A stretch of DNA of 64,000 nucleotides from sequence record PP047754; one strand, 5' to 3'. The stretch's first letter is position 1. Each line of letters opens with the position of its first letter. This stretch comes from Escherichia phage KEP4. Of the stretch, positions 5,291-63,973 are shown one piece after another. A program made the translations under genes and the position numbers. Under the pieces are notes generated by a model. That model was not told where the DNA came from and did no database searches. It was given only the letters and a program-made list of their open reading frames with translations.

Positions 5291-6613
5291 ATGACTAAGA
5301 AACTTGTAACCGAAGAAATGCGCAAACAGTGGCTGCCAGTTCTCCAAAAAGAATCTGAAGCTATTCAACCTCTGTCTGCCGAAAACGTAACCATCCGTCT
5401 GATGCAGAACCAGGCTGAATGGAACGCAAAAAACCTGGGCGAATCTGACGCACCTGGTTCTGTGAACAGCACTGTCGGTAAATGGCAGCCAGTTCTGATC
5501 GACATGGCAAAACGTCTGGCGCCGATCAACATCGCGATGGACTTCTTCGGTGTTCAGCCGCTGTCTGGTCCTGACGGTCAGATCTTTGCACTGCGCGCTC
5601 GCCAGGGTGTTGGTGACAGTTCCAACACCGCACAGTCTCGTAAAGAACTGTTCATGCAGGAAGCCGATTCCGGCTATTCCGGTGATGGTACTGTACAGGC
5701 TGGCGACCCGTCAGGCTTTAGTCAGGCTGAAATCGAAGGTTCTGGCTCTGGCGTGACCACTATCGGTAAAGGTATGCCGTCAACCGACGCGGAACTGCTG
5801 GGTACTACCACCAATCCGTGGGCGCGTGTTGGTATCACCGTTCAGAAAGCGACCGTTACTGCCAAGTCTCGCGGCCTGTATGCTGATTACAGCCATGAAC
5901 TGCGTCAGGATATGATGGCAATTCACGGCGAAGACGTGGATAATATCCTGTCTGACGTGATGGTAACTGAAATTCAGGCGGAAATGAACCGTGAATTCAT
6001 CCGTACCATGAACTTCAGTGCTGTTCGCTTCAAAAAATTCGGAACCAACGGTGTTGTTGATATCGCGCAGGACATCTCTGGTCGTTGGGCGCTGGAAAAA
6101 TGGAAGTTCCTGACTTTCATGCTGGAAGTTGAAGCGAACGGTATCGGTGTTGACACCCGTCGTGGTAAAGGCAACCGTGTTCTGTGTTCTCCGAACGTGG
6201 CATCCGCTCTGGCGATGTCTGGCATGCTGGACTATGCTCCAGTTCTGCAGGAAAACACTAAACTGGCTGTTGACCCGACTGGCCAGACCTTCGCTGGTGT
6301 TCTGTCCAACGGTATGCGCGTCTATGTTGACCCGTATGCTGTAGCAGAATATATCACTCTGGCATACAAAGGCGCAACTGCGCTGGATGCTGGTATCTTC
6401 TTCGCGCCGTATGTGCCGCTGGAAATGTACCGCACCCAGGGTGAAACCACCTTCGCTCCGCGTATGGCGTTCAAAACCCGTTACGGCATCTGTGCTAACC
6501 CGTTCGTACAGATTCCGGCTAACCAAGACCCGCAGGTTTACGTGACTGCTGACGGTATCGCTCAAGACAGCAACCCGTATTTCCGCAAAGGTCTGATCAA
6601 ATCTCTGTTCTAA
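5291..6613 (+). CDS. major capsid protein gp23
   Basis: 440 aa; motifs GVQPLSGPDGQIFALRA, FAPYVPL and KTRYGICANPF match T4 gp23; strongly biased, highly-expressed-type codon usage. Confidence 0.9.
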   Translation: MTKKLVTEEMRKQWLPVLQKESEAIQPLSAENVTIRLMQNQAEWNAKNLGESDAPGSVNSTVGKWQPVLIDMAKRLAPINIAMDFFGVQPLSGPDGQIFALRARQGVGDSSNTAQSRKELFMQEADSGYSGDGTVQAGDPSGFSQAEIEGSGSGVTTIGKGMPSTDAELLGTTTNPWARVGITVQKATVTAKSRGLYADYSHELRQDMMAIHGEDVDNILSDVMVTEIQAEMNREFIRTMNFSAVRFKKFGTNGVVDIAQDISGRWALEKWKFLTFMLEVEANGIGVDTRRGKGNRVLCSPNVASALAMSGMLDYAPVLQENTKLAVDPTGQTFAGVLSNGMRVYVDPYAVAEYITLAYKGATALDAGIFFAPYVPLEMYRTQGETTFAPRMAFKTRYGICANPFVQIPANQDPQVYVTADGIAQDSNPYFRKGLIKSLF

Positions 6614-6633
6614 TCGACAGGTTTTGATAACAA

Positions 6634-6655
6634 ACCCCGCTTCGGCGGGGTTTTT
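6634..6655 (+). terminator. rho-independent terminator after gp23
   Basis: ccccgc-ttcg-gcgggg hairpin followed by TTTTT; same hairpin core as at 278-298. Confidence 0.65.
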
Positions 6656-6747
6656 CTTTATAGGGATTCACTATAAGACCGCTAATAGTTTTCAATAAAT
6701 GGGCAATGAACGATCATTACCCAACTTTCACAATAGGAATACAACTC

Positions 6748-6942
6748 ATGGCAAAAGAAACTCTTAACAATGAAAACTCCAACTTTGCAGAATGGCATAC
6801 CGAATTAGAGCGCGTTGCCCGTTCTCAACATGGTTCTGCCGCTGATGCAGATGCTTGGCGTGAAGATTATGAATCTGGAAAAACTCCACGTCAGGCTTGG
6901 GAAGACGAATGGGGGTGGGATGATGCCGACTCTAATCCGTAA
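6748..6942 (+). CDS. hypothetical protein, 64 aa, acidic/Trp-rich
   Basis: ATG preceded by an AGGAA leader resembling the conserved cassette leader; start chosen inside ORF-track frame 6706. Confidence 0.35.
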   Translation: MAKETLNNENSNFAEWHTELERVARSQHGSAADADAWREDYESGKTPRQAWEDEWGWDDADSNP

Positions 6943-8245: not shown

Positions 8246-8337
8246 ATTCAATAAACGGGGTTTACTTCTTCAATAAACCCCGTATACTTCATTCCATAAG
8301 CAGCACAACACTGACTCTGAAATGAAGGAACTACATC
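8246..8337 (+). promoter_or_regulatory. early promoter + stem-loop cassette (PeSL-like), copy 1
   Basis: ttattcaataaa - hairpin cgggg/ccccg - TTTACT (8261-8266) - 17 bp - TATACT (8284-8289) - conserved leader aggaactacatc - ATG. Confidence 0.55.
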
Positions 8338-20189: not shown

Positions 20190-22205
20190 ATGGCAGAATT
20201 CAAACCCTTCGCAACGGCAGTTAATAACAACGTGCTGGCGATGTCCGCAACTGGTCTGTTCATGACCAATATCGATAAAGATGCTCTTTGGGATCTGTAT
20301 CTGGCATCTTTCCCTGCTGGTACCAACCCGCTCTACCGTGAGCGTACTGAGCACGACTGCACCTGCTGTAAACAATTCATCCGTAACATCGGCGGTGTGG
20401 TCACCATCGACTCCGACCTGAACGTAATTTCTATCTGGGACAACATTGATCTGGGTAATGAATATGACGTGGTGGCTGCGGCTCTTTCCGCGTATGTCAA
20501 ACAACACGCAATCGTCGATGTTTATTTTAACGATTCTGCCAAAGTCGGCCTGTCTCACAATCACGAAATGAAAGACGGCAATGTCCGCACCTACAACCAC
20601 TTCCACACCGACCTGCTGGGTAGCTATGTTCTGCGTCCGGACGCAATCGCTTCGAAAAAAGGTGAAATCCGCCAGGCTATTGAATTGTTTGAACGCGGTC
20701 TGCGTGAAATTACTCTGGAATCAGCTGAAATCGTTCTGGAACTGATTGACCAGAATTCTCTGTATCGCGGCGCAGAACACAAAGCAGCAGTGAAGGGATT
20801 TGTTGAAACCAAAAAGGCATATGAACAAATCCCCGAATCAGCCCGTTCTCTGTGGGCATGGCATACTGGATACCGTTCAAACAATCATGTTCCACACGGC
20901 ATCCGTAACACAGTTATCGGCACTCTGCTGACAGATATCAGCGAAGGCGTGGAACTGGAAAAGGCTGTTAAATCGTTTGAATCCAAAGTTGCTCCGGCGA
21001 ACTACAAACGTCCGACAGCGCTGGTTTCAAAATCCATGATCGAAAACGCTCAGAAAGAAGTTATTGCTCTGGGTTTGGAAGACTCACTGGCGCGTCGTTA
21101 TGCGGTTTATGATGATCTGACAATCAACAACGTTCTGTTCGCAGATCTGGCTGCTCAGAAAGCGATGGATCCGTTTGCTCAGCTGGCTGCCGAAGTGAAA
21201 ACTCCGACCAAGTCCCTGGAAAAAGTTGAAGAGATCAGCGTTGATGATTTCCTGAGCAATGTTCTGCCAAAAGCGCATTCAATGGAAGTGCTTGTAGAGA
21301 ATTCTCATACTAGCAACCTGATGTCCCTGGTTGCTCCGGCGAACCCAGATGCGCCTAACCTGTTCAAGTGGAACAACGGTTTCTCCTGGTCTTACAACGG
21401 TGAAGTGACCGATTCCATTAAAGAACGTGTAAAGGCTGCTGGCGGTAAAGTTGACGGGTATCTGCGCGTTTCCTTGGCGTGGCACAATAACGACGACCTC
21501 GATCTGCATATGTTCAACAACATGGAGCACGTTTACTTCCGCGATCGCCGCTCTATGACAGGTGCCCATCTGGATATCGATATGAACGGTATGGATGGTA
21601 TTGATCCAAACCGCGCTCCGGTGGAAAATATCATCTTTACAGATGAAAGCAAGCTGCGCGATGGTGAATACCGTTTCGAAATCCACAACTACAATCAACG
21701 TGAAAAAATCGACGAAGGGTTTGAAGTCGAAGTAGAATACAAAGGCGCAACGCATCGTTTCAGCCATCCTGGCCTGAAAGATCAGGGACGTATCACCGCA
21801 GTCATCTTGACTGTTAAAGACAAACAAGTTGTTGGCATTAAGTCCGAACTGGCTAATGTTGATAAGTCTAAAGAAGTTTGGGGTATCAAGACAGCGACCT
21901 TCCAGAAAGTACAGCTGGTCCTGAACTCACCAAACCATTGGGATGGCGAGCAGACAGGCAACAAGCACGTGTTCTTCATCCTGGAAGGTTGTGCTAATCC
22001 TGAAGGTACTCGTGGTTTCTACAACGAATATCTGAAGCCAGAACTGGATAAACATCGTAAGGTTTTTGAAATGTTGGGTAGTAAAATGAAAGTCCAGCCG
22101 AATGAAAACCAACTGTCCGGTCTGGGATTCTCGACGACGCAACGCAACCATGTGTTCGTCAAAGTGTCCGGCGCGTTTAACCGTACTGTAAAAGTCATTT
22201 TCTAA
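20190..22205 (+). CDS. hypothetical protein, 671 aa, highly-expressed-type codon usage
   Basis: Strong AGGAAG RBS and cassette-like upstream region; N-terminal Cys cluster HDCTCCKQF; no recognised catalytic motif. Confidence 0.5.
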   Translation: MAEFKPFATAVNNNVLAMSATGLFMTNIDKDALWDLYLASFPAGTNPLYRERTEHDCTCCKQFIRNIGGVVTIDSDLNVISIWDNIDLGNEYDVVAAALSAYVKQHAIVDVYFNDSAKVGLSHNHEMKDGNVRTYNHFHTDLLGSYVLRPDAIASKKGEIRQAIELFERGLREITLESAEIVLELIDQNSLYRGAEHKAAVKGFVETKKAYEQIPESARSLWAWHTGYRSNNHVPHGIRNTVIGTLLTDISEGVELEKAVKSFESKVAPANYKRPTALVSKSMIENAQKEVIALGLEDSLARRYAVYDDLTINNVLFADLAAQKAMDPFAQLAAEVKTPTKSLEKVEEISVDDFLSNVLPKAHSMEVLVENSHTSNLMSLVAPANPDAPNLFKWNNGFSWSYNGEVTDSIKERVKAAGGKVDGYLRVSLAWHNNDDLDLHMFNNMEHVYFRDRRSMTGAHLDIDMNGMDGIDPNRAPVENIIFTDESKLRDGEYRFEIHNYNQREKIDEGFEVEVEYKGATHRFSHPGLKDQGRITAVILTVKDKQVVGIKSELANVDKSKEVWGIKTATFQKVQLVLNSPNHWDGEQTGNKHVFFILEGCANPEGTRGFYNEYLKPELDKHRKVFEMLGSKMKVQPNENQLSGLGFSTTQRNHVFVKVSGAFNRTVKVIF

Positions 22206-24293: not shown

Positions 24294-26510
24294 ATGATTG
24301 AATCATTAACATTTAAAAATGCGGTAGCAACCGTCGCGCCGTCTAACCATGTAATCGTTGTGGATATCTCCGGTTCCATGTACCGTTCACTTCCTGAAGT
24401 TCGCAAGCATCTGAAGGAAAATCTCCCGTCTCTGGTTAAACCAGAAGATACCGTCAGCATTCTTTACTTTTCATCCCGTGGTGATTTCGGTACGGTATTC
24501 GCTGGCCGTCAGATCAATAGCGCGACCGATCTCAGTGAAATCAATAAACTGATTGACCGCTTCCTGCAACCGTCCGGTTGTACGGGATTTGTAGAACCTC
24601 TGAAGTTGGCTGCTGAAACCGCGTTGAGCCTGAACAAACCTGGTTATGTCAATAACCTGGCGTTCATGACCGACGGCTATGACAACTGCTGGCGCTCTAA
24701 TGAAATTCTGGCAGCAGCTGAAGTACTGCCCAAGGCGTTCGATAATATTACATTCATCGAATATGGCTGGTATTGTAACCGCGAACTTCTGGCTCTGATG
24801 TCCGAGCGTTCTGGCGCGACTCACGTGTTTGCCGAAGGTCAGACTGAATATCAGACCGAACTGGAAAACGTACTGAAATCATCTACGCCGAAAGTGGTTG
24901 TTGATGTTCCCCTGGTTTACACTCATGCCATCTACGTTGAAAACGGCGTGGCAACTGTGCTAGCCGTACAACCCGATGAAGAACACCCGATTGGCCACGT
25001 CAGCATCCCTGAAAGCGTTTCTCAGCTGTGGGTTGTAAACCCTAACATGATCGACCAGCTGGATAATCTGGCAGACACCCAGGCGGCATACGTGCTGGCA
25101 TTCTATGGCGTGTACACCATGGACGCCGATCTGGTCTGGGCCGCGCTGAAGAAGACGGGTGACGTCCGCTTCATCAAACAATACAGCAACTGTTTCACCA
25201 AGCAGGACTATTCCAACATCAAAGTCGATCTGACCCAGGCTATCGTGGATGAAACTCTACGCGGCGTAGATGGCATCGATTACAATATGGTTCCAGCTGA
25301 AGATGCAACGACCATTGTTGATGTCTTGACCTACCTGGCCGAAGCCGATGTCTCTGTTGTCACTAAGCATCCATTGTTCTCTTACAACAGCATCGGTCGC
25401 GGCACTGTGCAGAAAGTTGATGACACTGAAGACAAGCTGGCTGAACAAATCGCCGAAGCCAAAACCAAAGCAGAGCGTAAAGCGCTGGCTCTCAAACTGG
25501 CTGAGCACGAAGATTGGACACCGGAATTTACTCCGGTTGATGACAAAGGGATTGTCCCAATTAGCAATCTGGTCTACAATTCAGAGCGCCCTAACATCAG
25601 CATTCAGACCGTTCAGCATGGGACGGTTGTTGTGCCGGAGTTCGTACAGAAGAAATATGAACTCCCTGAAGAACTGGGAACCTGGCGTTATCGTAATTAC
25701 ACCATCGTCAAAGATGGAATCATCAACCTGAAGACGATGCCGATTACTGCCGAATCTCCGATTGTCCGAGCTAAGGTTGTCCAAGATTTGATCGCCATGG
25801 GCGTTAATGTATTTGGTGGACCGGAAATCTTCATCGTTAATTTAGAAAGCGTTCCGATGGTCAACCGCGCCATGACCAAGAACATCAGTGCTGCCGAATT
25901 CTTCGCTGACAACGTTCGTCGCGAAGCGCTGAAGGCAAAACAGAAAGTTCTGAAATTCTATCGTGATGAACTGGTTGGCAAAGGCAATGCAACTGGTCTG
26001 GCTTCTAAATATGGTAAAGAAGCCGCCGATTTCTTGTCGGCAAATGGCATTCGCGACTACGGGTTCTCGCCGAAAACTACTTCTGTGGAATCAACCGATG
26101 TCTACATGAGCCGTGAGCTGAATGTGAAAATCAAAGGTGCTTCGTCGCTGCCGAGCATTGCGTCAGTTATCAAAAAGCAAGCAGATGGTAAAAAACTGAA
26201 TGTCGCTGATCAGTTGATTGCCAATGCTTTGGCCGAATACGACGCTTTTGTTAAATCGCCAATGATCACCAGCGTACCTGAAGAGACTCAGAAAAAGCTG
26301 ATTGAAAGCTGGATCGGGGACGCAGCAAAAGCGGCCATTAACGAAGTCCGCGCCCTGAACAAAACTCTGTCTAAAGTAGTTTACGGCATCGTCGCTGGTC
26401 ATGGTTGGTTCACTGATTTGGATCTGGAAGAGTCTACGATGGATGTAGAAGTTGATGGGGTGAAATACACCGTCACTGCCGAACTGGCCGAAAAAGAAAT
26501 CAAAATCTAA
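24294..26510 (+). CDS. von Willebrand factor A (vWA) domain protein, 738 aa
   Basis: MIDAS motif VVDISGSM (DxSxS) near the N-terminus, then MTDGYDN; ORF-track start 24258 is a GTG, ATG 24294 chosen. Confidence 0.6.
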   Translation: MIESLTFKNAVATVAPSNHVIVVDISGSMYRSLPEVRKHLKENLPSLVKPEDTVSILYFSSRGDFGTVFAGRQINSATDLSEINKLIDRFLQPSGCTGFVEPLKLAAETALSLNKPGYVNNLAFMTDGYDNCWRSNEILAAAEVLPKAFDNITFIEYGWYCNRELLALMSERSGATHVFAEGQTEYQTELENVLKSSTPKVVVDVPLVYTHAIYVENGVATVLAVQPDEEHPIGHVSIPESVSQLWVVNPNMIDQLDNLADTQAAYVLAFYGVYTMDADLVWAALKKTGDVRFIKQYSNCFTKQDYSNIKVDLTQAIVDETLRGVDGIDYNMVPAEDATTIVDVLTYLAEADVSVVTKHPLFSYNSIGRGTVQKVDDTEDKLAEQIAEAKTKAERKALALKLAEHEDWTPEFTPVDDKGIVPISNLVYNSERPNISIQTVQHGTVVVPEFVQKKYELPEELGTWRYRNYTIVKDGIINLKTMPITAESPIVRAKVVQDLIAMGVNVFGGPEIFIVNLESVPMVNRAMTKNISAAEFFADNVRREALKAKQKVLKFYRDELVGKGNATGLASKYGKEAADFLSANGIRDYGFSPKTTSVESTDVYMSRELNVKIKGASSLPSIASVIKKQADGKKLNVADQLIANALAEYDAFVKSPMITSVPEETQKKLIESWIGDAAKAAINEVRALNKTLSKVVYGIVAGHGWFTDLDLEESTMDVEVDGVKYTVTAELAEKEIKI

Positions 26511-26874: not shown

Positions 26875-26986
26875 AATCCCCAATATTTATTGGGGATTTT
26901 TACTTTTAGGGGTTTACTTCTTCTAAAGAATATCCTATTATTCAATAACTGGCTAACGTGGGGTTGGCTAGAAAAGGAGATACAAA
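26875..26986 (+). promoter_or_regulatory. early promoter + stem-loop cassette (PeSL-like), copy 2
   Basis: Hairpin aatcccc/ggggatt + TTTTT, TTTACT (26913-26918) - 17 bp - TATTAT (26936-26941), ttattcaataa box, AAAAGGAGA RBS. Confidence 0.5.
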
Positions 26987-33288: not shown

Positions 33289-33567
33289 ATGAACCGTACT
33301 GATTTTATCGCTCACATCGCCCAGACTCAGGGTATGACCAAAGGCGAAGCAGAGAAGATCGTGGCATCCTTTATCAACGGCGTAAAAACTGCAGTCGCAG
33401 CTGGCCAATCTGTCCAATTCGTCGGCTTTGGCGCGTTTGAAGTTAAACATCAGGAAGCGCGCACTGGCCGCAACCCGCTGAACGGGCAAGCGATTCAGAT
33501 CGAAGCGAAAAATGTTGTTAAATTCAAAGTCGGTGAAGGTCTGAAAGCTGCTGCCAACGGCCAGTAA
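33289..33567 (+). CDS. HU/IHF-family histone-like DNA-binding protein
   Basis: 92 aa; VQFVGFGAFEVKHQEARTGRNPLNGQAIQIEAKNVVKFKVG matches the HU signature GFGxF...R.GRNP.TG. Confidence 0.85.
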   Translation: MNRTDFIAHIAQTQGMTKGEAEKIVASFINGVKTAVAAGQSVQFVGFGAFEVKHQEARTGRNPLNGQAIQIEAKNVVKFKVGEGLKAAANGQ

Positions 33568-43222: not shown

Positions 43223-43326
43223 ATTATTCAATAAAAGGGGCGTTTGCCCCTTTACTTCTTCAATAACCCACGTATAATTCTAAACATAAGCAGTACGACA
43301 CCAACTTGAAAAGCAGGAACTATATC
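43223..43326 (+). promoter_or_regulatory. early promoter + stem-loop cassette (PeSL-like), copy 3
   Basis: ttattcaataaa - hairpin ggggc-gttt-gcccc - TTTACT (43251-43256) - 16 bp - TATAAT (43273-43278) - leader aggaactatatc - ATG. Confidence 0.6.
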
Positions 43327-48916: not shown

Positions 48917-49122
48917 TGGATTTGAAAGAACTGAATAGTATGGACGATGAAGAGATTCTTCGCGGGTATATGCAAGCCCGTGAAGGATATGTCCTATCTG
49001 GTTTAGAATCTAAGAGTTTCATCCATGGTTGGAGGAACGGAATGGTGGACTTCGGCGGTTGTCCTATCACTGAAGAACAAATGAATTTGGCTCGCCAGTA
49101 TTTGAAAAAGAAGCCGACCTAA
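48913..49122 (+). CDS. hypothetical protein, 69 aa
   Basis: ATG overlapping primase stop (ATGATG). Confidence 0.4.
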   Translation: MMDLKELNSMDDEEILRGYMQAREGYVLSGLESKSFIHGWRNGMVDFGGCPITEEQMNLARQYLKKKPT

Positions 49123-49150
49123 AACTTTTTAACTCAAAAACCTTCTCTCT

Positions 49151-49321
49151 AGGCCTCATTCTACGAGGCCTTTTAAAATACTTCAAAAATAATTTAAAAA
49201 TTTATTGAAAAAGACTTTACTCTTCAATAATCATGCACTATTATAGTTCACATAGGGCGGTACACAACACCCCGCCGAATGAAAAGTGAAACGACCCAAC
49301 TACATTATGAGGAATTACATC
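49151..49321 (+). promoter_or_regulatory. terminator + early promoter cassette (PeSL-like), copy 4
   Basis: Hairpin aggcctc-attctac-gaggcct + TTTT, TTTACT (49216-49221) - 17 bp - TATTAT (49239-49244), leader aggaattacatc - ATG. Confidence 0.55.
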
Positions 49322-49810
49322 ATGGCTACTACCAAAACTCTGATCACCAACGGCACCATCTCTTTTGAACTGAACACCGAAGTTGCAAAAGTTGAAATGT
49401 TCCGCATCGCTCAGGCAGCTGGTTTCACTGGTGGCAAAACTTCCTTCATGAATCTGCTGAACGGCAAAGTGAAAGCGACCAACGGCTTCACCCTGGTAGA
49501 GCAGGTTGTCGTAGACAAAGCCGTGGTTGCCAAAACTGCTGACAAGGTTGGCATGCTGAAAGACCTGGGCCATGACATCCACGTTGTCGAAGCGAATACC
49601 GAAACTTACGGCACCATCGTAGTCGGTAAAGGTCGCATTCAGCTGAACCCGCTGAACAACGGAACCTTCTCCGTGATGGTATTCCCGAAAAAGGGTTATG
49701 ACAACAGTGATATCGTGAAAGCCGCTGGCGGTGAAGCGAAATCCCAGTATGTCAAAATGGGTAAACTGAGCGCCGACGCAGTAGAAACTCTGGTGAACAA
49801 ACTGGCTTAA
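49322..49810 (+). CDS. hypothetical protein, 162 aa, highly-expressed-type codon usage
   Basis: Cassette-driven; codon usage similar to gp23; followed by a strong terminator. Confidence 0.55.
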   Translation: MATTKTLITNGTISFELNTEVAKVEMFRIAQAAGFTGGKTSFMNLLNGKVKATNGFTLVEQVVVDKAVVAKTADKVGMLKDLGHDIHVVEANTETYGTIVVGKGRIQLNPLNNGTFSVMVFPKKGYDNSDIVKAAGGEAKSQYVKMGKLSADAVETLVNKLA

Positions 49811-49815
49811 CCGCA

Positions 49816-49836
49816 AGGGGGAAACCTCCCCCTTTC
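49816..49836 (+). terminator. rho-independent terminator
   Basis: aggggga-aacc-tccccct hairpin followed by TTC. Confidence 0.55.
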
Positions 49837-49860
49837 AAAGTTTTGGTAGGAGAATGAGAC

Positions 49861-50049
49861 ATGAGTAGAGCAATTATCCAAGCCTCTCCTGGCGCTCTAT
49901 GGGTTGCCGACCGAATTCCCAACGCGCACTTTCCTCAGTTCCAAGAGGAACTGGAACAAACGATGTTGAAAATATTTGAAAAATATGGGTATGATTCCGA
50001 AGTTAGGACTTCCTTCAAAGAAATCATGCCTGTCGTCGTAGTCAGATAA
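49861..50049 (+). CDS. hypothetical protein, 62 aa
   Basis: Short ORF with GGAGAATGAG upstream. Confidence 0.3.
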   Translation: MSRAIIQASPGALWVADRIPNAHFPQFQEELEQTMLKIFEKYGYDSEVRTSFKEIMPVVVVR

Positions 50050-50118
50050 TCGACACTAAATCCTCAAGTTCGACTTTCACTTTAAATACCTTCGCATACA
50101 TTGCGGAGGTATTTTCTT

Positions 50119-50913
50119 ATGGCCATTCTAAAACTTGGCAACCGAGGTTCTGAAGTCAAAGCACTTCAACAAAGCCTCAACAAAATCGGTTTCTCCCTTA
50201 CAGCCGATGGCATATTTGGTAAAGCAACAGAGAATGCAGTCAAATCCGTTCAGGCAGGTGCTGGATTGGTTATTGATGGTATTGCTGGGCCAAAGACCTT
50301 CTATGCTATCCGCAACGCTGGAGACGCTCACCAGGAACATCTGACCGAAGCGGACTTGGTTGACGCAGCACGTGAACTTGGTGTTGAGCTGGCCAGTATG
50401 AAAGCTGTGAATCAGGTAGAATCCCGTGGCACGGGTTTTACCAAAACTGGCAAGATCAAAACTCTGTTTGAGCGCCACATCATGTACAAAAAGGTGACGG
50501 CCAAATTCGGGCAAGCAAGAGCCAATGCTCTGTACCAACTCTACCCAACATTGGTTAACCCCAATTCTGGCGGGTATATCGGCGGAGACGCGGAGTTGGA
50601 ACGCCTTCAGGGTGCAATCGCCCTTGACGAGGACTGCGCTTACGAGAGTGCTTCCTACGGCCTATTCCAGATCATGGGGTTCAACTGCCAAATCTGTGGA
50701 TATCCAAATGCCAAAGAGATGTTCACTGATTTCCTGACTGGTGAACGCGCTCATCTTCTGGCATTTGTCAAGTTCATCAAGGCTGATGCCAATATGTGGA
50801 AAGCCCTGAAGAACAAGAATTGGGCCGAGTTTGCTCGTCGGTACAATGGTCCGGCATATGCGAAAAACCAGTATGATACTAAACTGGCGGCAGCATACAA
50901 GAGTTTCTGCTAA
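50119..50913 (+). CDS. endolysin: N-terminal peptidoglycan-binding domain + C-terminal muramidase-like domain
   Basis: GGAGG RBS; LKLGNRGSEVKALQQSLNKIGF ... DGIFGKATENAVKSVQ (PG_binding_1-like); C-terminal YGLFQIMGFN ... WAEFARRYNGP. Confidence 0.7.
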   Translation: MAILKLGNRGSEVKALQQSLNKIGFSLTADGIFGKATENAVKSVQAGAGLVIDGIAGPKTFYAIRNAGDAHQEHLTEADLVDAARELGVELASMKAVNQVESRGTGFTKTGKIKTLFERHIMYKKVTAKFGQARANALYQLYPTLVNPNSGGYIGGDAELERLQGAIALDEDCAYESASYGLFQIMGFNCQICGYPNAKEMFTDFLTGERAHLLAFVKFIKADANMWKALKNKNWAEFARRYNGPAYAKNQYDTKLAAAYKSFC

Positions 50914-55637: not shown

Positions 55638-55735
55638 AGCCCCTCAATGAGGGGCTTTACTTTTGAAACCTTTCCGCCTATACTTCCCAGTAATTCATTG
55701 GCAAACGCCACAAATTGAATAGCAGGAACTATATC
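55638..55735 (+). promoter_or_regulatory. early promoter + stem-loop cassette (PeSL-like), copy 5
   Basis: Hairpin agcccctc-aat-gaggggct, TTTACT (55656-55661) - 17 bp - TATACT (55679-55684), leader aggaactatatc - ATG. Confidence 0.6.
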
Positions 55736-62941: not shown

Positions 62942-63973
62942 ATGGGTAATTTATTTGATCGTCTTAAACAATCTCGTGGCCAACAAGCCGAAGCTATGCA
63001 ACAGCGACTCGCTCAGCAAGGCCAGCGTGTTGGTGGCGGTCGTGACCCACGCATCTGGAAGTGGACCTGGAATGACAAGGGTACTTCTGAAAACATCATT
63101 CGTTTCCTGCCGATCCCTTTGGTGGACATGAAGGCTCAAGAAGAAGGCACTATCCCTGAAGATGCTGTGTTAACTCCGTGTGCCATGATCATGAAACACG
63201 CATTCCAGGGCGCTGGCGGCTGGTATATCGAAAACTCTCCGCAGACTTTCGGTAACGATGATCCTGTTCGTGACCACGATCGTCCTCTGTGGGCACAACA
63301 GAAAGAAACGAATGATGAAAAGCTGAAAACAGTTCTCAAAAAACGTCTGCCGGACACCAAATACTACGCCAACATCCTGGTGATCAAAGATGGCAACAAT
63401 CCGGAAAACAACGGCAAGGTCTTCTTGCTTGAGTTCGGTAATGCCGTCAAGAAAATCCTGGATTCGGCTCAGAATCCTAAGTTCTCAACTGACCCTAAAT
63501 TCGACCCGTTCGATATGTGGGAAGGCGCGAACCTGATTCTGAACCTCTTTGGCGAAGAGAAAGAGTTCGGCAACTGGAAAGGTCTGGTGGCCAACTTCAC
63601 CAATGTGAAGTGGGATACTCCGGCACCTTTGGGGACAGACGAATACATTGAAGAGATCTGGGAAAAAGAACACAGTCTGTTTGAGTTCTTTAATCCGGCC
63701 AACTTCAAATCGTACGAAGATCTGGAAAAACGTTTGCGCAAAGTTCTGGCCATCCCTGATAATCAGCCTCTGGTTGAAGGTGGTGCTTCTACTATGGCAC
63801 ATGCGCCTACCCAGTCTCAGGAACCCCAGCGCCCAACAGCGCAGGAAAGTCTGAACCAACAACAATCTCAGCCTTCTAATGCACAGCAATCTGTTCCAGC
63901 CAATAATGGTGGTGCCGATGCGAAACAGACGGCTTCCATTGATGAGTTCGAGCAGTTCCTGAAGCAAGACTAA
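62942..63973 (+). CDS. single-stranded DNA-binding protein gp32
   Basis: IIRFLP, GWYIEN, GKVFLLEFG, DMWEGANLILNL, FEFFNPANFKSYEDLEKRLRK and acidic C-terminal tail parallel T4 gp32. Confidence 0.85.
   Translation: MGNLFDRLKQSRGQQAEAMQQRLAQQGQRVGGGRDPRIWKWTWNDKGTSENIIRFLPIPLVDMKAQEEGTIPEDAVLTPCAMIMKHAFQGAGGWYIENSPQTFGNDDPVRDHDRPLWAQQKETNDEKLKTVLKKRLPDTKYYANILVIKDGNNPENNGKVFLLEFGNAVKKILDSAQNPKFSTDPKFDPFDMWEGANLILNLFGEEKEFGNWKGLVANFTNVKWDTPAPLGTDEYIEEIWEKEHSLFEFFNPANFKSYEDLEKRLRKVLAIPDNQPLVEGGASTMAHAPTQSQEPQRPTAQESLNQQQSQPSNAQQSVPANNGGADAKQTASIDEFEQFLKQD

What the first reader, a model, noticed from the sequence alone, without database searches (positions are those of the whole stretch)
49322..49810. 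Abundant-looking 162-aa unknown protein driven by its own cassette and terminator
This ORF has codon usage as biased as gp23, its own promoter/stem-loop cassette and a strong terminator, which suggests a very highly expressed monocistronic gene. I can place no motif. Candidates include a decoration protein, a DNA-binding protein or a host-shutoff factor.
Basis: seen in the sequence. Interest (0 to 1): 0.4.

Follow-up and report, generated by a model that had tools for sequence, protein, structure and literature searches.

The report
Highly expressed early phage orphan protein
This is a real, conserved gene of Vi1/CBA120-type phages (family Ackermannviridae) that looks built for very high early expression; it encodes a 17-kDa two-domain protein that is not part of the virus particle, and its function is still unknown, most plausibly nucleic-acid or transcription related.

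Summary
The window is a Kuttervirus genome, about 99.5% identical to CBA120. The ORF at 49322-49810 is CBA120 orf104, annotated "hypothetical" in more than 350 phage records.

The observation largely holds:
- E. coli CAI is 0.65, second of 84 ORFs after the major capsid gene (0.70). Neighbouring genes score 0.21-0.39.
- A sigma-70-type promoter (TTTACT-17-TATTAT) lies upstream. It belongs to a class with 5 copies on the + strand, against 0.18 expected.
- There is an AT-rich upstream stretch, a 5'-UTR hairpin and a good ribosome-binding site.
- The "strong terminator" is a GC-rich hairpin without a proper T-tract. A hairpin sits at this position in 8 of 8 lineages examined.

The protein family has no Pfam match, PHROG 3764 is "unknown", and no PDB sequence or fold match was found. 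Only 38 cluster representatives were found among 1.84 billion. It has an N-domain, a variable linker and a C-domain, and is mildly basic. Homologues are absent from two virion proteomes, so a decoration protein is unlikely.

My best guess, at low confidence, is an abundant early cytoplasmic protein that binds nucleic acid or the transcription machinery stoichiometrically. Its C-domain has the same secondary-structure order as the C-terminal half of T4 Alc, but profile comparisons do not support homology. The gene is ordinary as a feature and worthwhile as an experimental target.

The parts
49151..49174 (+). Upstream intrinsic-terminator-like hairpin (AGGCCTC-N7-GAGGCCT followed by TTT) that ends the primase/orf105 transcript and insulates the gene
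   Evidence: Folds at -12.1 kcal/mol, z -5.4. Annotated as a terminator in Mutine and LIMEstone1 at the equivalent place. Conserved in Kutter-, Limestone- and Taipeivirus. It narrowly fails the tool's T-tract rule.
49175..49215 (+). AT-rich, A-tract-rich stretch upstream of the -35, resembling an UP element
   Evidence: Read directly from the sequence. A similar AAATTTATT(C/G)AA(T/A)AA box lies upstream of the sister promoters at 8261 and 43251. The UP-element function is inferred.
49216..49244 (+). Sigma-70-type promoter: -35 TTTACT (49216-49221), 17-nt spacer containing CTTCAATAA, -10 TATTAT (49239-49244)
   Evidence: Listed by the promoter scan. It is a member of a class with 5 copies on the + strand and 0 on the - strand, against 0.18 expected. 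It is conserved across genera. LIMEstone1 annotates the same -10 as a 'putative middle promoter'.
49256..49276 (+). 5'-UTR stem-loop (GGCGG, 11-nt loop, CCGCC) starting about 4-6 nt after the expected transcription start; presumed mRNA stabiliser
   Evidence: -10.6 kcal/mol, z -3.7. The same stem is present in Limestone-, Taipei- and Nezavisimistyvirus. The stem never varies, so there is no covariation evidence. The stabiliser role is inferred from established knowledge of 5'-terminal hairpins in E. coli mRNAs.
49309..49313 (+). Shine-Dalgarno sequence GAGGA, 8 nt before the ATG, inside the shared block AGGAA(C/T)TA(C/T)ATCATG
   Evidence: The 15-mer has 9 matches against 1.9 expected, including the sister genes at 8326, 43315 and 55724.
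49322..49810 (+). CDS of 162 aa (CBA120 orf104 family, PHROG 3764); 17.2 kDa, pI 9.25
49322..49513 (+). N-terminal domain (aa 1-64): strand-strand-helix-helix-strand, with the conserved G34...G-[KR]-T-S-F...L45...G55 signature
   Evidence: AF2 model md8ad47ae93d7 and alignments A1-A3. The domain also occurs alone or fused to a DUF3489 region in other proteins.
49514..49543 (+). Inter-domain linker (aa 65-74)
   Evidence: pLDDT below 50 at residues 65-70. In homologues the linker varies from about 10 to about 100 residues and is Pro/Ala/Glu-rich in some.
49544..49807 (+). C-terminal domain (aa 75-162): helix, four strands, helix, strand, helix. Carries most of the invariant polar residues (T93 E94 T95 Y96 T98, R105 Q107, S117, K124, Q142 Y143).
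   Evidence: It has the same element order as residues 82-167 of a T4-type Alc model.
49815..49834 (+). GC-rich 3' hairpin (AAGGGGGA-AACC-TCCCCCTT) 5 nt after the stop codon. Read as a leaky terminator, attenuator or 3' stabiliser, not a canonical terminator.
   Evidence: -13.8 kcal/mol, z -3.2. A hairpin is present at this position in 8 of 8 lineages with different sequences. It is not called by the scan or by annotators.
49861..50049 (+). Downstream 62-aa ORF (CBA120 orf103, PHROG 3594, unknown function), probably reached by read-through
   Evidence: CAI is 0.21. No promoter match lies between 49835 and 49861.
50084..50118 (+). First canonical terminator downstream (13-bp stem followed by a T-run). 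Its 3' arm contains the endolysin GGAGG Shine-Dalgarno sequence (50105-50109).
   Evidence: -18.0 kcal/mol, z -5.1. Annotated as a terminator overlapping the ribosome-binding site in Mutine and LIMEstone1.

Best explanation
The gene is CBA120 orf104. It is conserved across the enterobacterial and Vibrio-infecting Ackermannviridae genera sampled and is non-structural.

How the gene is expressed (inferred). It is transcribed by host sigma-70 RNA polymerase from a T4-early-like promoter. It is equipped for maximal output:
- an upstream terminator that insulates it;
- an AT-rich region resembling an UP element;
- a 5'-proximal hairpin expected to stabilise the mRNA;
- a good Shine-Dalgarno sequence;
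- host-optimal codons;
- a 3' hairpin that stabilises the message or attenuates read-through into the poorly adapted orf103.

What the product does (inferred, low confidence). The product is a cytoplasmic, mildly basic 17-kDa protein with two small alpha/beta domains joined by a flexible linker of variable length. I infer that it acts stoichiometrically rather than catalytically. Most likely it binds nucleic acid (phage or host DNA) or the transcription machinery through the conserved polar face of the C-terminal beta-sheet. The N-domain would then supply a second contact, either self-association or a partner.

What is shown and what is not. Shown: gene anatomy, conservation, domain architecture, absence from virions, and lack of any known family. 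Inferred: early timing, high abundance, and nucleic-acid or transcription binding.
For: Expression design:
- CAI is 0.654, second only to the capsid gene. It exceeds the HU-like gene (0.56), the sliding clamp (0.52) and the gp32-like SSB (0.44).
- The bias is conserved in five genera.
- The promoter class is enriched: 5 copies against 0.18 expected, all on the + strand and all intergenic. The other four copies sit upstream of small ORFs of unknown function (79-154 aa), as is typical of early genes.
- The -35 TTTAC matches the T4 early-promoter consensus (my own knowledge; Liebig & Ruger 1989, cited in PMC3184105).
- These phages have no MotA/AsiA (PMC3184105), and gp55-type late promoters lack a -35 element.
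- The 5' and 3' hairpins are conserved in position.

Conservation and location:
- tblastn finds it in 356 phage records, one copy each.
- The gene order primase, small ORF, gap, this gene, small ORFs, endolysin, PhoH, NrdA holds in five genera.

Not in the virion: absent from the LIMEstone1 and Sajous1 virion proteomes.

Protein:
- The AF2 model has pLDDT 83.5 and shows two domains plus a disordered linker.
- The linker length is hypervariable.
- Most members have pI 8.4-9.9.
- Invariant polar and aromatic residues alternate along the C-domain strands (E94/Y96/T98, R105/Q107/N109, S117). This indicates a conserved exposed sheet surface (inference).
- In other proteins the N-domain is fused to a DUF3489 region (P0096, P0101).
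- The C-domain has the same element order, at nearly the same positions, as the C-terminal half of T4-type Alc. The forward Foldseek hit to an 'ALC protein' has probability 0.80, 99 columns and rmsd 4.0.
- The Alc model in turn matches the MotA DNA-binding proteins.
Against: - No expression data for any Ackermannviridae were found in the paper library. Timing and abundance are therefore inferred only.
- Net charge is modest (+4), and a few homologues are neutral or acidic.
- There is no significant sequence or fold match to any DNA- or RNA-binding protein: Pfam, NCBIfam and PDB profile searches and Foldseek against PDB, best E 0.3.
- The phage already encodes an HU-like protein and a gp32-like SSB.
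- The Alc link is not supported at sequence level. hhalign probability is 1-2%. The local score has z of about 2-2.7 against column shuffles, and the global score has z 0.1.
- The reciprocal Foldseek search with the Alc model does not return this family in its top 50.
- LIMEstone1's annotators called the promoter 'middle' rather than early.
Confidence: 0.35

Rival explanations
1. Stoichiometric inhibitor or sponge. The protein is made in bulk early to titrate something abundant. That could be a host protein (for example H-NS, HU, a protease or a ribosome-associated factor) or an immune signalling molecule. The precedents are T7 Ocr and gp5.5, and the anti-CBASS and anti-Thoeris sponges.
For: - The same expression design argues for a stoichiometric role.
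- The promoter class otherwise drives small ORFs of unknown function, typical of host-takeover or anti-defence genes.
- A conserved polar sheet surface could equally be a ligand or protein-binding site.
- No nucleic-acid-binding fold was recognised.
Against: - Foldseek against PDB (entries to April 2026), which should include the solved sponge and Ocr/ArdA structures, found nothing with E below 0.3.
- The protein is basic, so it is not a DNA mimic.
- It is strictly conserved and syntenic across genera that infect very different hosts. That is less typical of fast-evolving anti-defence genes.
Confidence: 0.25
2. Alc-like factor. The C-terminal domain is a very divergent relative of the T4 Alc C-terminal domain (MotA-CTD-like). 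The protein would then discriminate host thymine-DNA from the phage's hypermodified hydroxymethyl-dU-derived DNA, to terminate host transcription or unfold the nucleoid.
For: - Foldseek hit to an 'ALC protein': probability 0.80, 99 aligned columns, rmsd 4.0.
- Near-identical order and positions of secondary-structure elements in the C-terminal halves.
- Similar size (162 aa against 167 aa).
- The hhalign local score is exceeded by only 1 of 60 column shuffles.
- The Alc model also hits a protein of phage PhiW-14, which has hypermodified thymine, and hits MotA.
- These phages use hydroxymethyl-dU (PMC3184105).
- A distant family member lies on a contig with a 5-hmdU DNA kinase domain.
Against: - No match to the Alc Pfam family PF17527 at E up to 1.
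- hhalign probability is 1-2%. For the C-domain alone the local z is 2.0 and the global z is 0.1.
- The N-terminal halves differ: Alc has a 47-residue helix that is absent here.
- The reciprocal Foldseek search did not recover this family in its top 50.
- One Vibrio phage appears to encode both families (accessions A0A2I7RYQ1 and A0A2I7RYS7). That argues against orthologous replacement.
Confidence: 0.1
3. Non-virion assembly chaperone or scaffold, made in bulk to fold or assemble abundant structural proteins, for example the four tailspikes or the capsid.
For: - Non-virion yet apparently abundant.
- The weak top PDB Foldseek hits are type-III secretion chaperones (SycE, SycH) and the chaperone-like protein DR_1245, with probability 0.1-0.33.
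Against: - Those hits are not significant (E at least 0.3, TM at most 0.37).
- The promoter is sigma-70-type rather than late-type.
- The gene lies in the replication and nucleotide-metabolism region, far from the structural modules.
Confidence: 0.07
4. Capsid decoration or internal head protein.
For: Codon bias comparable to that of the capsid gene.
Against: - Absent from the 39-protein LIMEstone1 virion proteome, which detected proteins down to a single peptide.
- Absent from the Sajous1 virion table.
- A separate Hoc-like decoration protein exists in LIMEstone1.
- The promoter is early-type.
Confidence: 0.03

Closest known systems
T4 Alc (Pfam PF17527), inhibitor of host transcription on cytosine-containing DNA
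   Same: - Small early phage protein of similar size (167 aa against 162 aa) from a phage with modified DNA.
- The C-terminal half has the same predicted order of elements at almost the same positions: four strands, helix, strand, helix.
- Weak Foldseek hit with probability 0.80.
   Different: - No significant sequence or profile similarity.
- The N-terminal halves are unrelated: Alc has a beta-hairpin plus a 47-residue helix.
- The reciprocal fold search was negative in its top 50.
- No functional data exist.
T4 MotA (two domains joined by a linker, with a C-terminal 'double-wing' DNA-binding domain)
   Same: - Two small domains joined by a flexible linker.
- The Alc model, whose C-terminal half resembles this protein's C-domain, matches MotA proteins at E 1e-3 to 2e-2.
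   Different: - hhalign against T4 MotA gives probability 0.2%.
- MotA did not appear among this protein's own Foldseek hits.
- MotA is a sequence-specific activator that is not expected to need capsid-level expression.
- The literature reports no MotA/AsiA in these phages (PMC3184105).
SPO1 TF1 and HU-type abundant phage DNA-binding proteins (Pfam PF00216)
   Same: Functional analogy only: a very abundant small protein in a phage with hydroxymethyl-uracil-type DNA (TF1 properties from my own knowledge).
   Different: - Not an HU fold or sequence.
- The window has its own HU homologue at 33289-33567, which matches PF00216 at 1e-29.
H-NS-type bridging nucleoid proteins (architecture only)
   Same: Two modules separated by a flexible, length-variable linker, in a small and abundant protein.
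   Different: No sequence or fold similarity. The N-domain is alpha/beta, not a coiled coil. DNA binding has not been demonstrated.
T7 gene 0.3 (Ocr) and gp5.5: bulk-expressed early proteins that neutralise host factors
   Same: An early gene under a strong host-type promoter, apparently made in stoichiometric amounts.
   Different: Ocr is a highly acidic DNA mimic, whereas this protein is basic. No structural match in PDB.

Membership tests
T4 Alc family (PF17527) | Sequence or profile match to the Alc family | tested here: not met
   - No Pfam hit at E up to 1 for this protein or for 38 family members.
- hhalign of the family profile against Alc alignments gives probability 1-2%.
- Local score z is 2.0-2.7 and global z is 0.1 against column-shuffled nulls.
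T4 Alc family (PF17527) | Overall fold: N-terminal hairpin, long (about 47-residue) helix, then a C-terminal domain of four strands, helix, strand(s), helix | tested here: inconclusive
   - The C-terminal element order and positions agree, and the forward Foldseek hit has probability 0.80 at E 0.33.
- The N-terminal half differs, and the reciprocal search did not return this family in its top 50.
- No direct superposition was possible.
T4 Alc family (PF17527) | Terminates host RNA polymerase on unmodified DNA and interacts with the beta subunit | not testable with these tools
   Needs in-vitro transcription and genetics.
HU/IHF-type DNA-binding proteins (PF00216) | Match to Bac_DNA_binding | tested here: not met
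   No hit. A separate HU homologue exists at 33289-33567.
P-loop NTPases | Walker A motif [AG]-x4-G-K-[ST] in a strand-loop-helix context, with the lysine conserved | tested here: not met
   - A33-GFTG-G38-K39-T40 fits the pattern, and profile searches weakly align it to the FeoB P-loop (E 0.35-1).
- K39 is R, S, Q, V or M in homologues.
- The model places the motif between two helices.
Virion structural or decoration proteins | Detected in purified particles | tested here: not met
   - LIMEstone1 ORF073 is not among the 39 proteins identified by mass spectrometry.
- The Sajous1 homologue is the first CDS of record MW021757. Whole-word 'gp1' occurs in the paper only in the tailspike table, referring to ChubbyThor, and the visible part of Table 6 does not list it. 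This assumes the paper's gene numbering follows the GenBank record.
Intrinsic (Rho-independent) terminator, for the element at 49815-49834 | GC-rich hairpin | tested here: met
   8-bp stem with 5 G-C pairs, -13.8 kcal/mol, z -3.2. A hairpin is present in 8 of 8 lineages.
Intrinsic (Rho-independent) terminator, for the element at 49815-49834 | U-tract immediately after the stem | tested here: not met
   - The stem is followed by TCAAAGTTTT, and the element was not reported by the scan.
- It is not annotated as a terminator in Mutine or LIMEstone1.
- Only the VAP7 phage locus and metagenomic contig L005 show a clear T-run.
Sigma-70-type (T4-early-like) promoter | -35 and -10 hexamers with a 16-18-nt spacer, intergenic, correctly oriented, recurrent | tested here: met
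   TTTACT-17-TATTAT. The class has 5 copies against 0.18 expected, all on the + strand and all upstream of ORFs. It is conserved across genera.
Sigma-70-type (T4-early-like) promoter | Active early in infection | not testable with these tools
   No transcriptome of any Ackermannviridae was found in the paper library.
GW / SH3b-like cell-wall-binding repeats (Atl R repeats, PDB 4epc) | Profile match and SH3b fold | tested here: inconclusive
   - The C-domain profile hits 4epc_A with a whole-sequence E of 4.9e-4. This sums two repeats with individual E values of 0.3 and 1.2, each over about 40 residues.
- 4epc is not among the top 50 Foldseek PDB hits.
- I treat it as a shared beta-meander motif or a chance match.

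The most novel reading that the evidence does not exclude
The orf104 family could be a previously unrecognised, extremely divergent Alc/MotA-CTD-like 'DNA-reading' protein. Made in bulk from the first minutes of infection, it would distinguish host thymine-DNA from the phage's hypermodified hydroxymethyl-dU-derived DNA. It would then shut off host transcription, or remodel the nucleoid, without touching the phage genome. That would supply the early host-takeover mechanism that Kutter et al. (PMC3184105) could not identify in CBA120.
Probability: 0.1. Interest if true: 0.8.

Novelty: new member of a known kind. Interest (0 to 1): 0.4.

Why it matters
Ackermannviridae (the CBA120, Vi1, Det7 and LIMEstone group) are widely used biocontrol and therapy phages. 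Their early programme is essentially uncharted: the CBA120 genome paper reported that early promoters and T4-type early regulators could not be identified.

This gene appears to be the most expression-optimised non-structural gene in the 64-kb window. It is found in every genus of the family sampled and has no recognisable fold or family. That makes it a prime candidate for a major, still unknown, stoichiometric step of host takeover or phage DNA handling.

The promoter class that drives it (TTTACT-N16/17-TATAAT, with a conserved spacer and a conserved 5' UTR/ribosome-binding block) is also a concrete, testable candidate for the missing early promoters. As a sequence feature, though, it is an ordinary, already-annotated hypothetical gene.

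Tried and rejected
- **Family libraries.** Pfam, NCBIfam and PHROGs gave nothing informative. Scattered weak hits to beta-rich domains (GlcV C-terminal, NIL, SdrD_B, CarboxypepD_reg) each occur in only 1-3 of 38 members, so I dismissed them.
- **PDB by sequence.** The single sequence, the whole-family profile, and the N-domain and C-domain profiles gave nothing significant. The FeoB P-loop-like 'GKTSxxNLxxG' match was rejected as a P-loop: the lysine is not conserved and the structural context is helix-loop-helix. The 4epc GW-repeat match is borderline and has no structural support.
- **Foldseek against PDB.** Best E was 0.3. The secretion-chaperone-like and serpin hits all have TM at most 0.37.
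- **Foldseek against BFVD.** Only uncharacterised family members were significant.
- **Exhaustive HMM search of 1.84 billion cluster representatives.** It returned 38 hits, none carrying any annotation I could see; the library holds no names. A second word-indexed search with the wider profile added nothing annotated except DUF3489 fusions.
- **hhalign against T4 Alc, Ndd and MotA, and against Alc family alignments.** None was significant. My by-eye collinear Alc alignment (NPL loop, GLSxDxVExxxxL C-terminus, LITN N-terminus) was not reproduced by hhalign, so I treat it as possible pattern-seeking.
- **N-domain as a Xis/MerR-type helix-turn-helix or a LysM domain.** I considered both by eye. 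No profile support was found, so neither is claimed.
- **Rfam scan of 49000-50200.** Nothing relevant.
- **Literature.** I searched for Ackermannviridae transcriptomes, infected-cell proteomes and orf104 itself and found nothing.
- **The 191-aa antisense ORF at 49241-49816.** Rejected as a by-product of the strong codon bias on the sense strand.
Full report
**Identity of the locus**

The window is a Kuttervirus (Ackermannviridae) genome. The segment 48900-50200 is 99.5-99.6% identical to Salmonella phages bering and ISTP3, and to Escherichia phage CBA120. The ORF at 49322-49810 (+) is CBA120 orf104, Mutine gene 138, bering gp093, Det7 gene 79 and LIMEstone1 ORF073. It is "hypothetical protein" in every record. 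tblastn finds it in 356 phage records, one copy per record. These include Salmonella, Klebsiella, Escherichia, Dickeya, Serratia, Shigella, Erwinia, Enterobacter and Aeromonas phages and about 70 Vibrio phages, down to 34% identity.

In five enterobacterial genera the gene order is primase, small ORF, intergenic gap, this gene, one to three small ORFs, endolysin, PhoH, NrdA. In Vibrio phages the neighbours differ, but the gene keeps an upstream gap and a downstream hairpin.

**Checking the observation**

- **Start codon.** The ATG at 49322 has a GAGGA Shine-Dalgarno sequence 8 nt upstream and gives the conserved N-terminus.
- **Codon bias.** E. coli CAI (Sharp-Li weights) is 0.654, against 0.705 for the major head gene. 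With a slightly long start the ORF ranked second of 84 ORFs (window mean 0.306, sd 0.103). All 12 Leu codons are CTG. The adjacent primase, orf105, orf103, endolysin and phoH score 0.21-0.39. Homologues in Limestone-, Taipei-, Nezavisimisty- and Miltonvirus score 0.58-0.69, against 0.25-0.42 for their neighbours. The bias is therefore real and maintained.
- **Promoter.** Upstream lies TTTACT (49216-49221), a 17-nt spacer and TATTAT (49239-49244). The pattern TTTAC[TA]-N16/17-TAT[AT][ACT]T occurs five times on the + strand (8261, 26913, 43251, 49216, 55656) and never on the - strand, with about 0.18 expected per strand. Every copy is intergenic and sits 50-105 nt upstream of a small ORF of unknown function.
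- **Shared blocks.** Three of the five promoters (8261, 43251 and the target) share the spacer box (T)CTTCAATAA. The 16-mer has 9 matches against 0.99 expected. Four of the five share the ribosome-binding block AGGAA(C/T)TA(C/T)ATCATG.
- **5' hairpin.** A GGCGG/CCGCC hairpin at 49256-49276 (-10.6 kcal/mol, z -3.7) starts a few bases after the expected transcription start. The same stem is present in three other genera.
- **Upstream insulation.** A hairpin followed by a T-run at 49151-49174 closes the primase operon.
- **The "strong terminator".** This is the weak point. The hairpin at 49815-49834 is stable (-13.8 kcal/mol), and a GC-rich hairpin follows the stop codon in all 8 lineages examined, with different sequences. 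However, it is followed by TCAAAGTTTT. It is not called by the scan and is not annotated as a terminator by the Mutine or LIMEstone1 authors. The 62-aa orf103 (CAI 0.21) follows 50 nt later, with no promoter match in the gap between them (one weak match, 49966-49995, lies inside its coding sequence). The first canonical terminator is at 50084-50118. I read the hairpin as an attenuator or 3' stabiliser.

**The protein**

The product is 17.2 kDa, with pI 9.25 and no Cys or Trp. By eye there is no signal peptide or hydrophobic segment.

There is no Pfam or meaningful NCBIfam hit, and PHROG 3764 is "unknown function". An exhaustive profile search of 1.84 billion cluster representatives gave only 38 hits at E below 1e-3.

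The AF2 model (pLDDT 83.5) shows three parts:
- an N-domain (residues 1-64): strand, strand, helix, helix, strand;
- a low-confidence linker (residues 65-70);
- a C-domain (residues 75-162): helix, four strands, helix, strand, helix.

Across the family the linker varies from about 10 to about 100 residues and is Pro/Ala/Glu-rich in some members. The N-domain also occurs alone or fused to a DUF3489 region. Most members are mildly basic.

Invariant residues concentrate in the C-domain: TETY-T, GR-Q--P, S117, P-KG and QY. They alternate along the strands, which suggests a conserved exposed sheet surface. That last point is inference.

Foldseek against PDB gave nothing better than E 0.3. PDB profile searches with the whole family or with single domains were also negative or borderline. 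The Walker-A-like A33-x4-GKT motif is not a P-loop: the lysine is not conserved, and the motif lies between two helices.

**Where the protein is not**

LIMEstone1 ORF073 is absent from the 39 virion proteins identified by mass spectrometry, a list that includes single-peptide identifications (PMC3296691). The Sajous1 homologue is the first CDS of its record and is not in the virion table (PMC10892097). This makes a decoration or internal head protein very unlikely.

The window also already encodes an HU homologue (33289-33567, PF00216 at 1e-29, CAI 0.56) and a gp32-like SSB (62942-63973, CAI 0.44; identified from its translated sequence, not from a family search). The protein is therefore neither of those.

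**Timing**

Timing is inferred, not measured. The promoter has both -35 and -10 hexamers at sigma-70 spacing, preceded by an AT-rich tract. TTTAC at -35 is the T4 early-promoter signature (my own knowledge; Liebig & Ruger 1989, cited in PMC3184105). gp55-type late promoters have no -35 element.

Kutter et al. reported no MotA/AsiA in CBA120 and said they could not identify its early promoters. LIMEstone1's annotators labelled the same -10 a "putative middle promoter". I found no transcriptome or infected-cell proteome for any Ackermannviridae.

**The Alc lead**

The only functional hint from structure was a BFVD hit to an "ALC protein": rank 21, E 0.33, probability 0.80, 99 columns, rmsd 4.0. 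I followed it up in four ways.
- **Profile comparison.** hhalign of the family against T4 Alc and against Alc alignments gives probability 1-2%. The local score lies 2-2.7 sd above column-shuffled nulls, and the global alignment is at null level.
- **Alc model.** An AF2 model of T4-type Alc (pLDDT 92.7) has, after a 47-residue helix, strands at 87-92, 95-100, 103-108 and 116-121, a helix at 127-133, strands at 139-141 and 148-154, and a helix at 156-167.
- **Comparison with the target.** The target has strands at 86-89, 96-101, 104-110 and 116-122, a helix at 128-135, a strand at 144-149, and a helix at 151-161. The element order and positions are strikingly alike.
- **Reciprocal search.** The reciprocal Foldseek search returned Alc relatives, a PhiW-14 protein and MotA proteins, but not this family in its top 50. 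The N-terminal halves of the two proteins differ.

Verdict: a possible shared C-terminal fold, with homology not established.

**Conclusion**

The gene anatomy, its conservation, the promoter class, the two-domain architecture, the non-virion status and the absence of any known family are shown. High early expression is a strong inference. The mechanism is a weak inference, at roughly 0.35: stoichiometric binding of nucleic acid or the transcription apparatus through the C-domain sheet, with the N-domain as a second contact. A titrating inhibitor or sponge is the main rival.

The finding is an ordinary, already-annotated hypothetical gene. It is nevertheless a good experimental target, and its promoter class may be the missing early promoters of this phage family.

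Noticed in passing
window 8261-8288, 26913-26941, 43251-43278, 49216-49244, 55656-55684 (+): A recurrent sigma-70-like promoter class, TTTACT-N16/17-TAT(A/T)(A/C/T)T, has 5 copies on the + strand, none on the - strand, and 0.18 expected. Three copies share the spacer box (T)CTTCAATAA. Four share the ribosome-binding block AGGAA(C/T)TA(C/T)ATCATG, and two (8261 and 43251) also share a CATAAGCAG-type leader. Each drives a small ORF of unknown function (154, 79, 122, 162 and 77 aa). The CBA120 genome paper stated that early promoters could not be identified, so these are candidates. The role of the conserved spacer box is unexplained.
   Followed up: partly
window 50084-50118 (+): A strong terminator hairpin (13-bp stem, -18.0 kcal/mol, z -5.1) carries the endolysin Shine-Dalgarno sequence GGAGG (50105-50109) in its 3' arm, and the endolysin ATG is at 50119. 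Read-through transcripts from upstream would have the endolysin ribosome-binding site sequestered, which may be a way of keeping lysis late. LIMEstone1 annotates a late promoter just upstream of the equivalent hairpin.
   Followed up: partly
window 20190-22205 (+): A 671-aa protein of unknown function (bering gp053, PHROG 1735) has a high CAI (0.51), a CTTCAATAA-containing upstream region and a GC-rich 5'-UTR hairpin (GCGCCC-N6-GGGCGC). There is no Pfam hit. It is another apparently highly expressed unknown.
   Followed up: no
window 33289-33567 (+): An HU-family DNA-binding protein (PF00216 at 1e-29) has the third-highest CAI in the window (0.56) and a TTTATTCAATAA box upstream. The phage therefore already makes an abundant HU-like protein.
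   Followed up: partly
window 49241-49816 (-): A 191-aa open frame lies antisense to the target gene. It is almost certainly a by-product of the strong sense-strand codon bias and is not a gene.
   Followed up: partly
Model m3ac7508f5fc5 (T4-type Alc, protein P0103) searched against BFVD: The AF2 model of T4-type Alc (pLDDT 92.7) matches T4-like MotA proteins at E 1e-3 to 2e-2. It also matches an uncharacterised protein of Delftia phage PhiW-14, the putrescinyl-thymine phage, at E 3e-4 over 161 columns. This suggests that Alc's C-terminal domain is MotA-CTD-like, and that an Alc-like protein exists in a phage with hypermodified thymine.
   Followed up: no
L005 (ENA ERZ27281801 k141_158303), gene at 6001-6756: A distant family member (P0080, 251 aa) has a Pro/Ala/Glu-rich linker of about 100 residues. 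It lies on an 87-kb contig that also carries a 5-hmdU DNA kinase helical domain (PF18723) and a T4-type clamp loader and RegA. The family thus extends to other phages that probably hypermodify thymidine.
   Followed up: no
Hit H26, OR844944.1 'Enterococcus phage Efm 3-10' (38,511 bp), 24415-24900: A record labelled as an Enterococcus phage encodes a protein 100% identical to this Kuttervirus protein. Single Pseudomonas- and Yersinia-labelled records also match the locus by megablast. These are probably contamination or mislabelling in the public records.
   Followed up: no
BFVD accessions A0A384ZS87 and A0A384ZSA2 (Vibrio phage YC): Vibrio phage YC has two paralogues of this family (141 and 142 aa). 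Kuttervirus records have a single copy.
   Followed up: no
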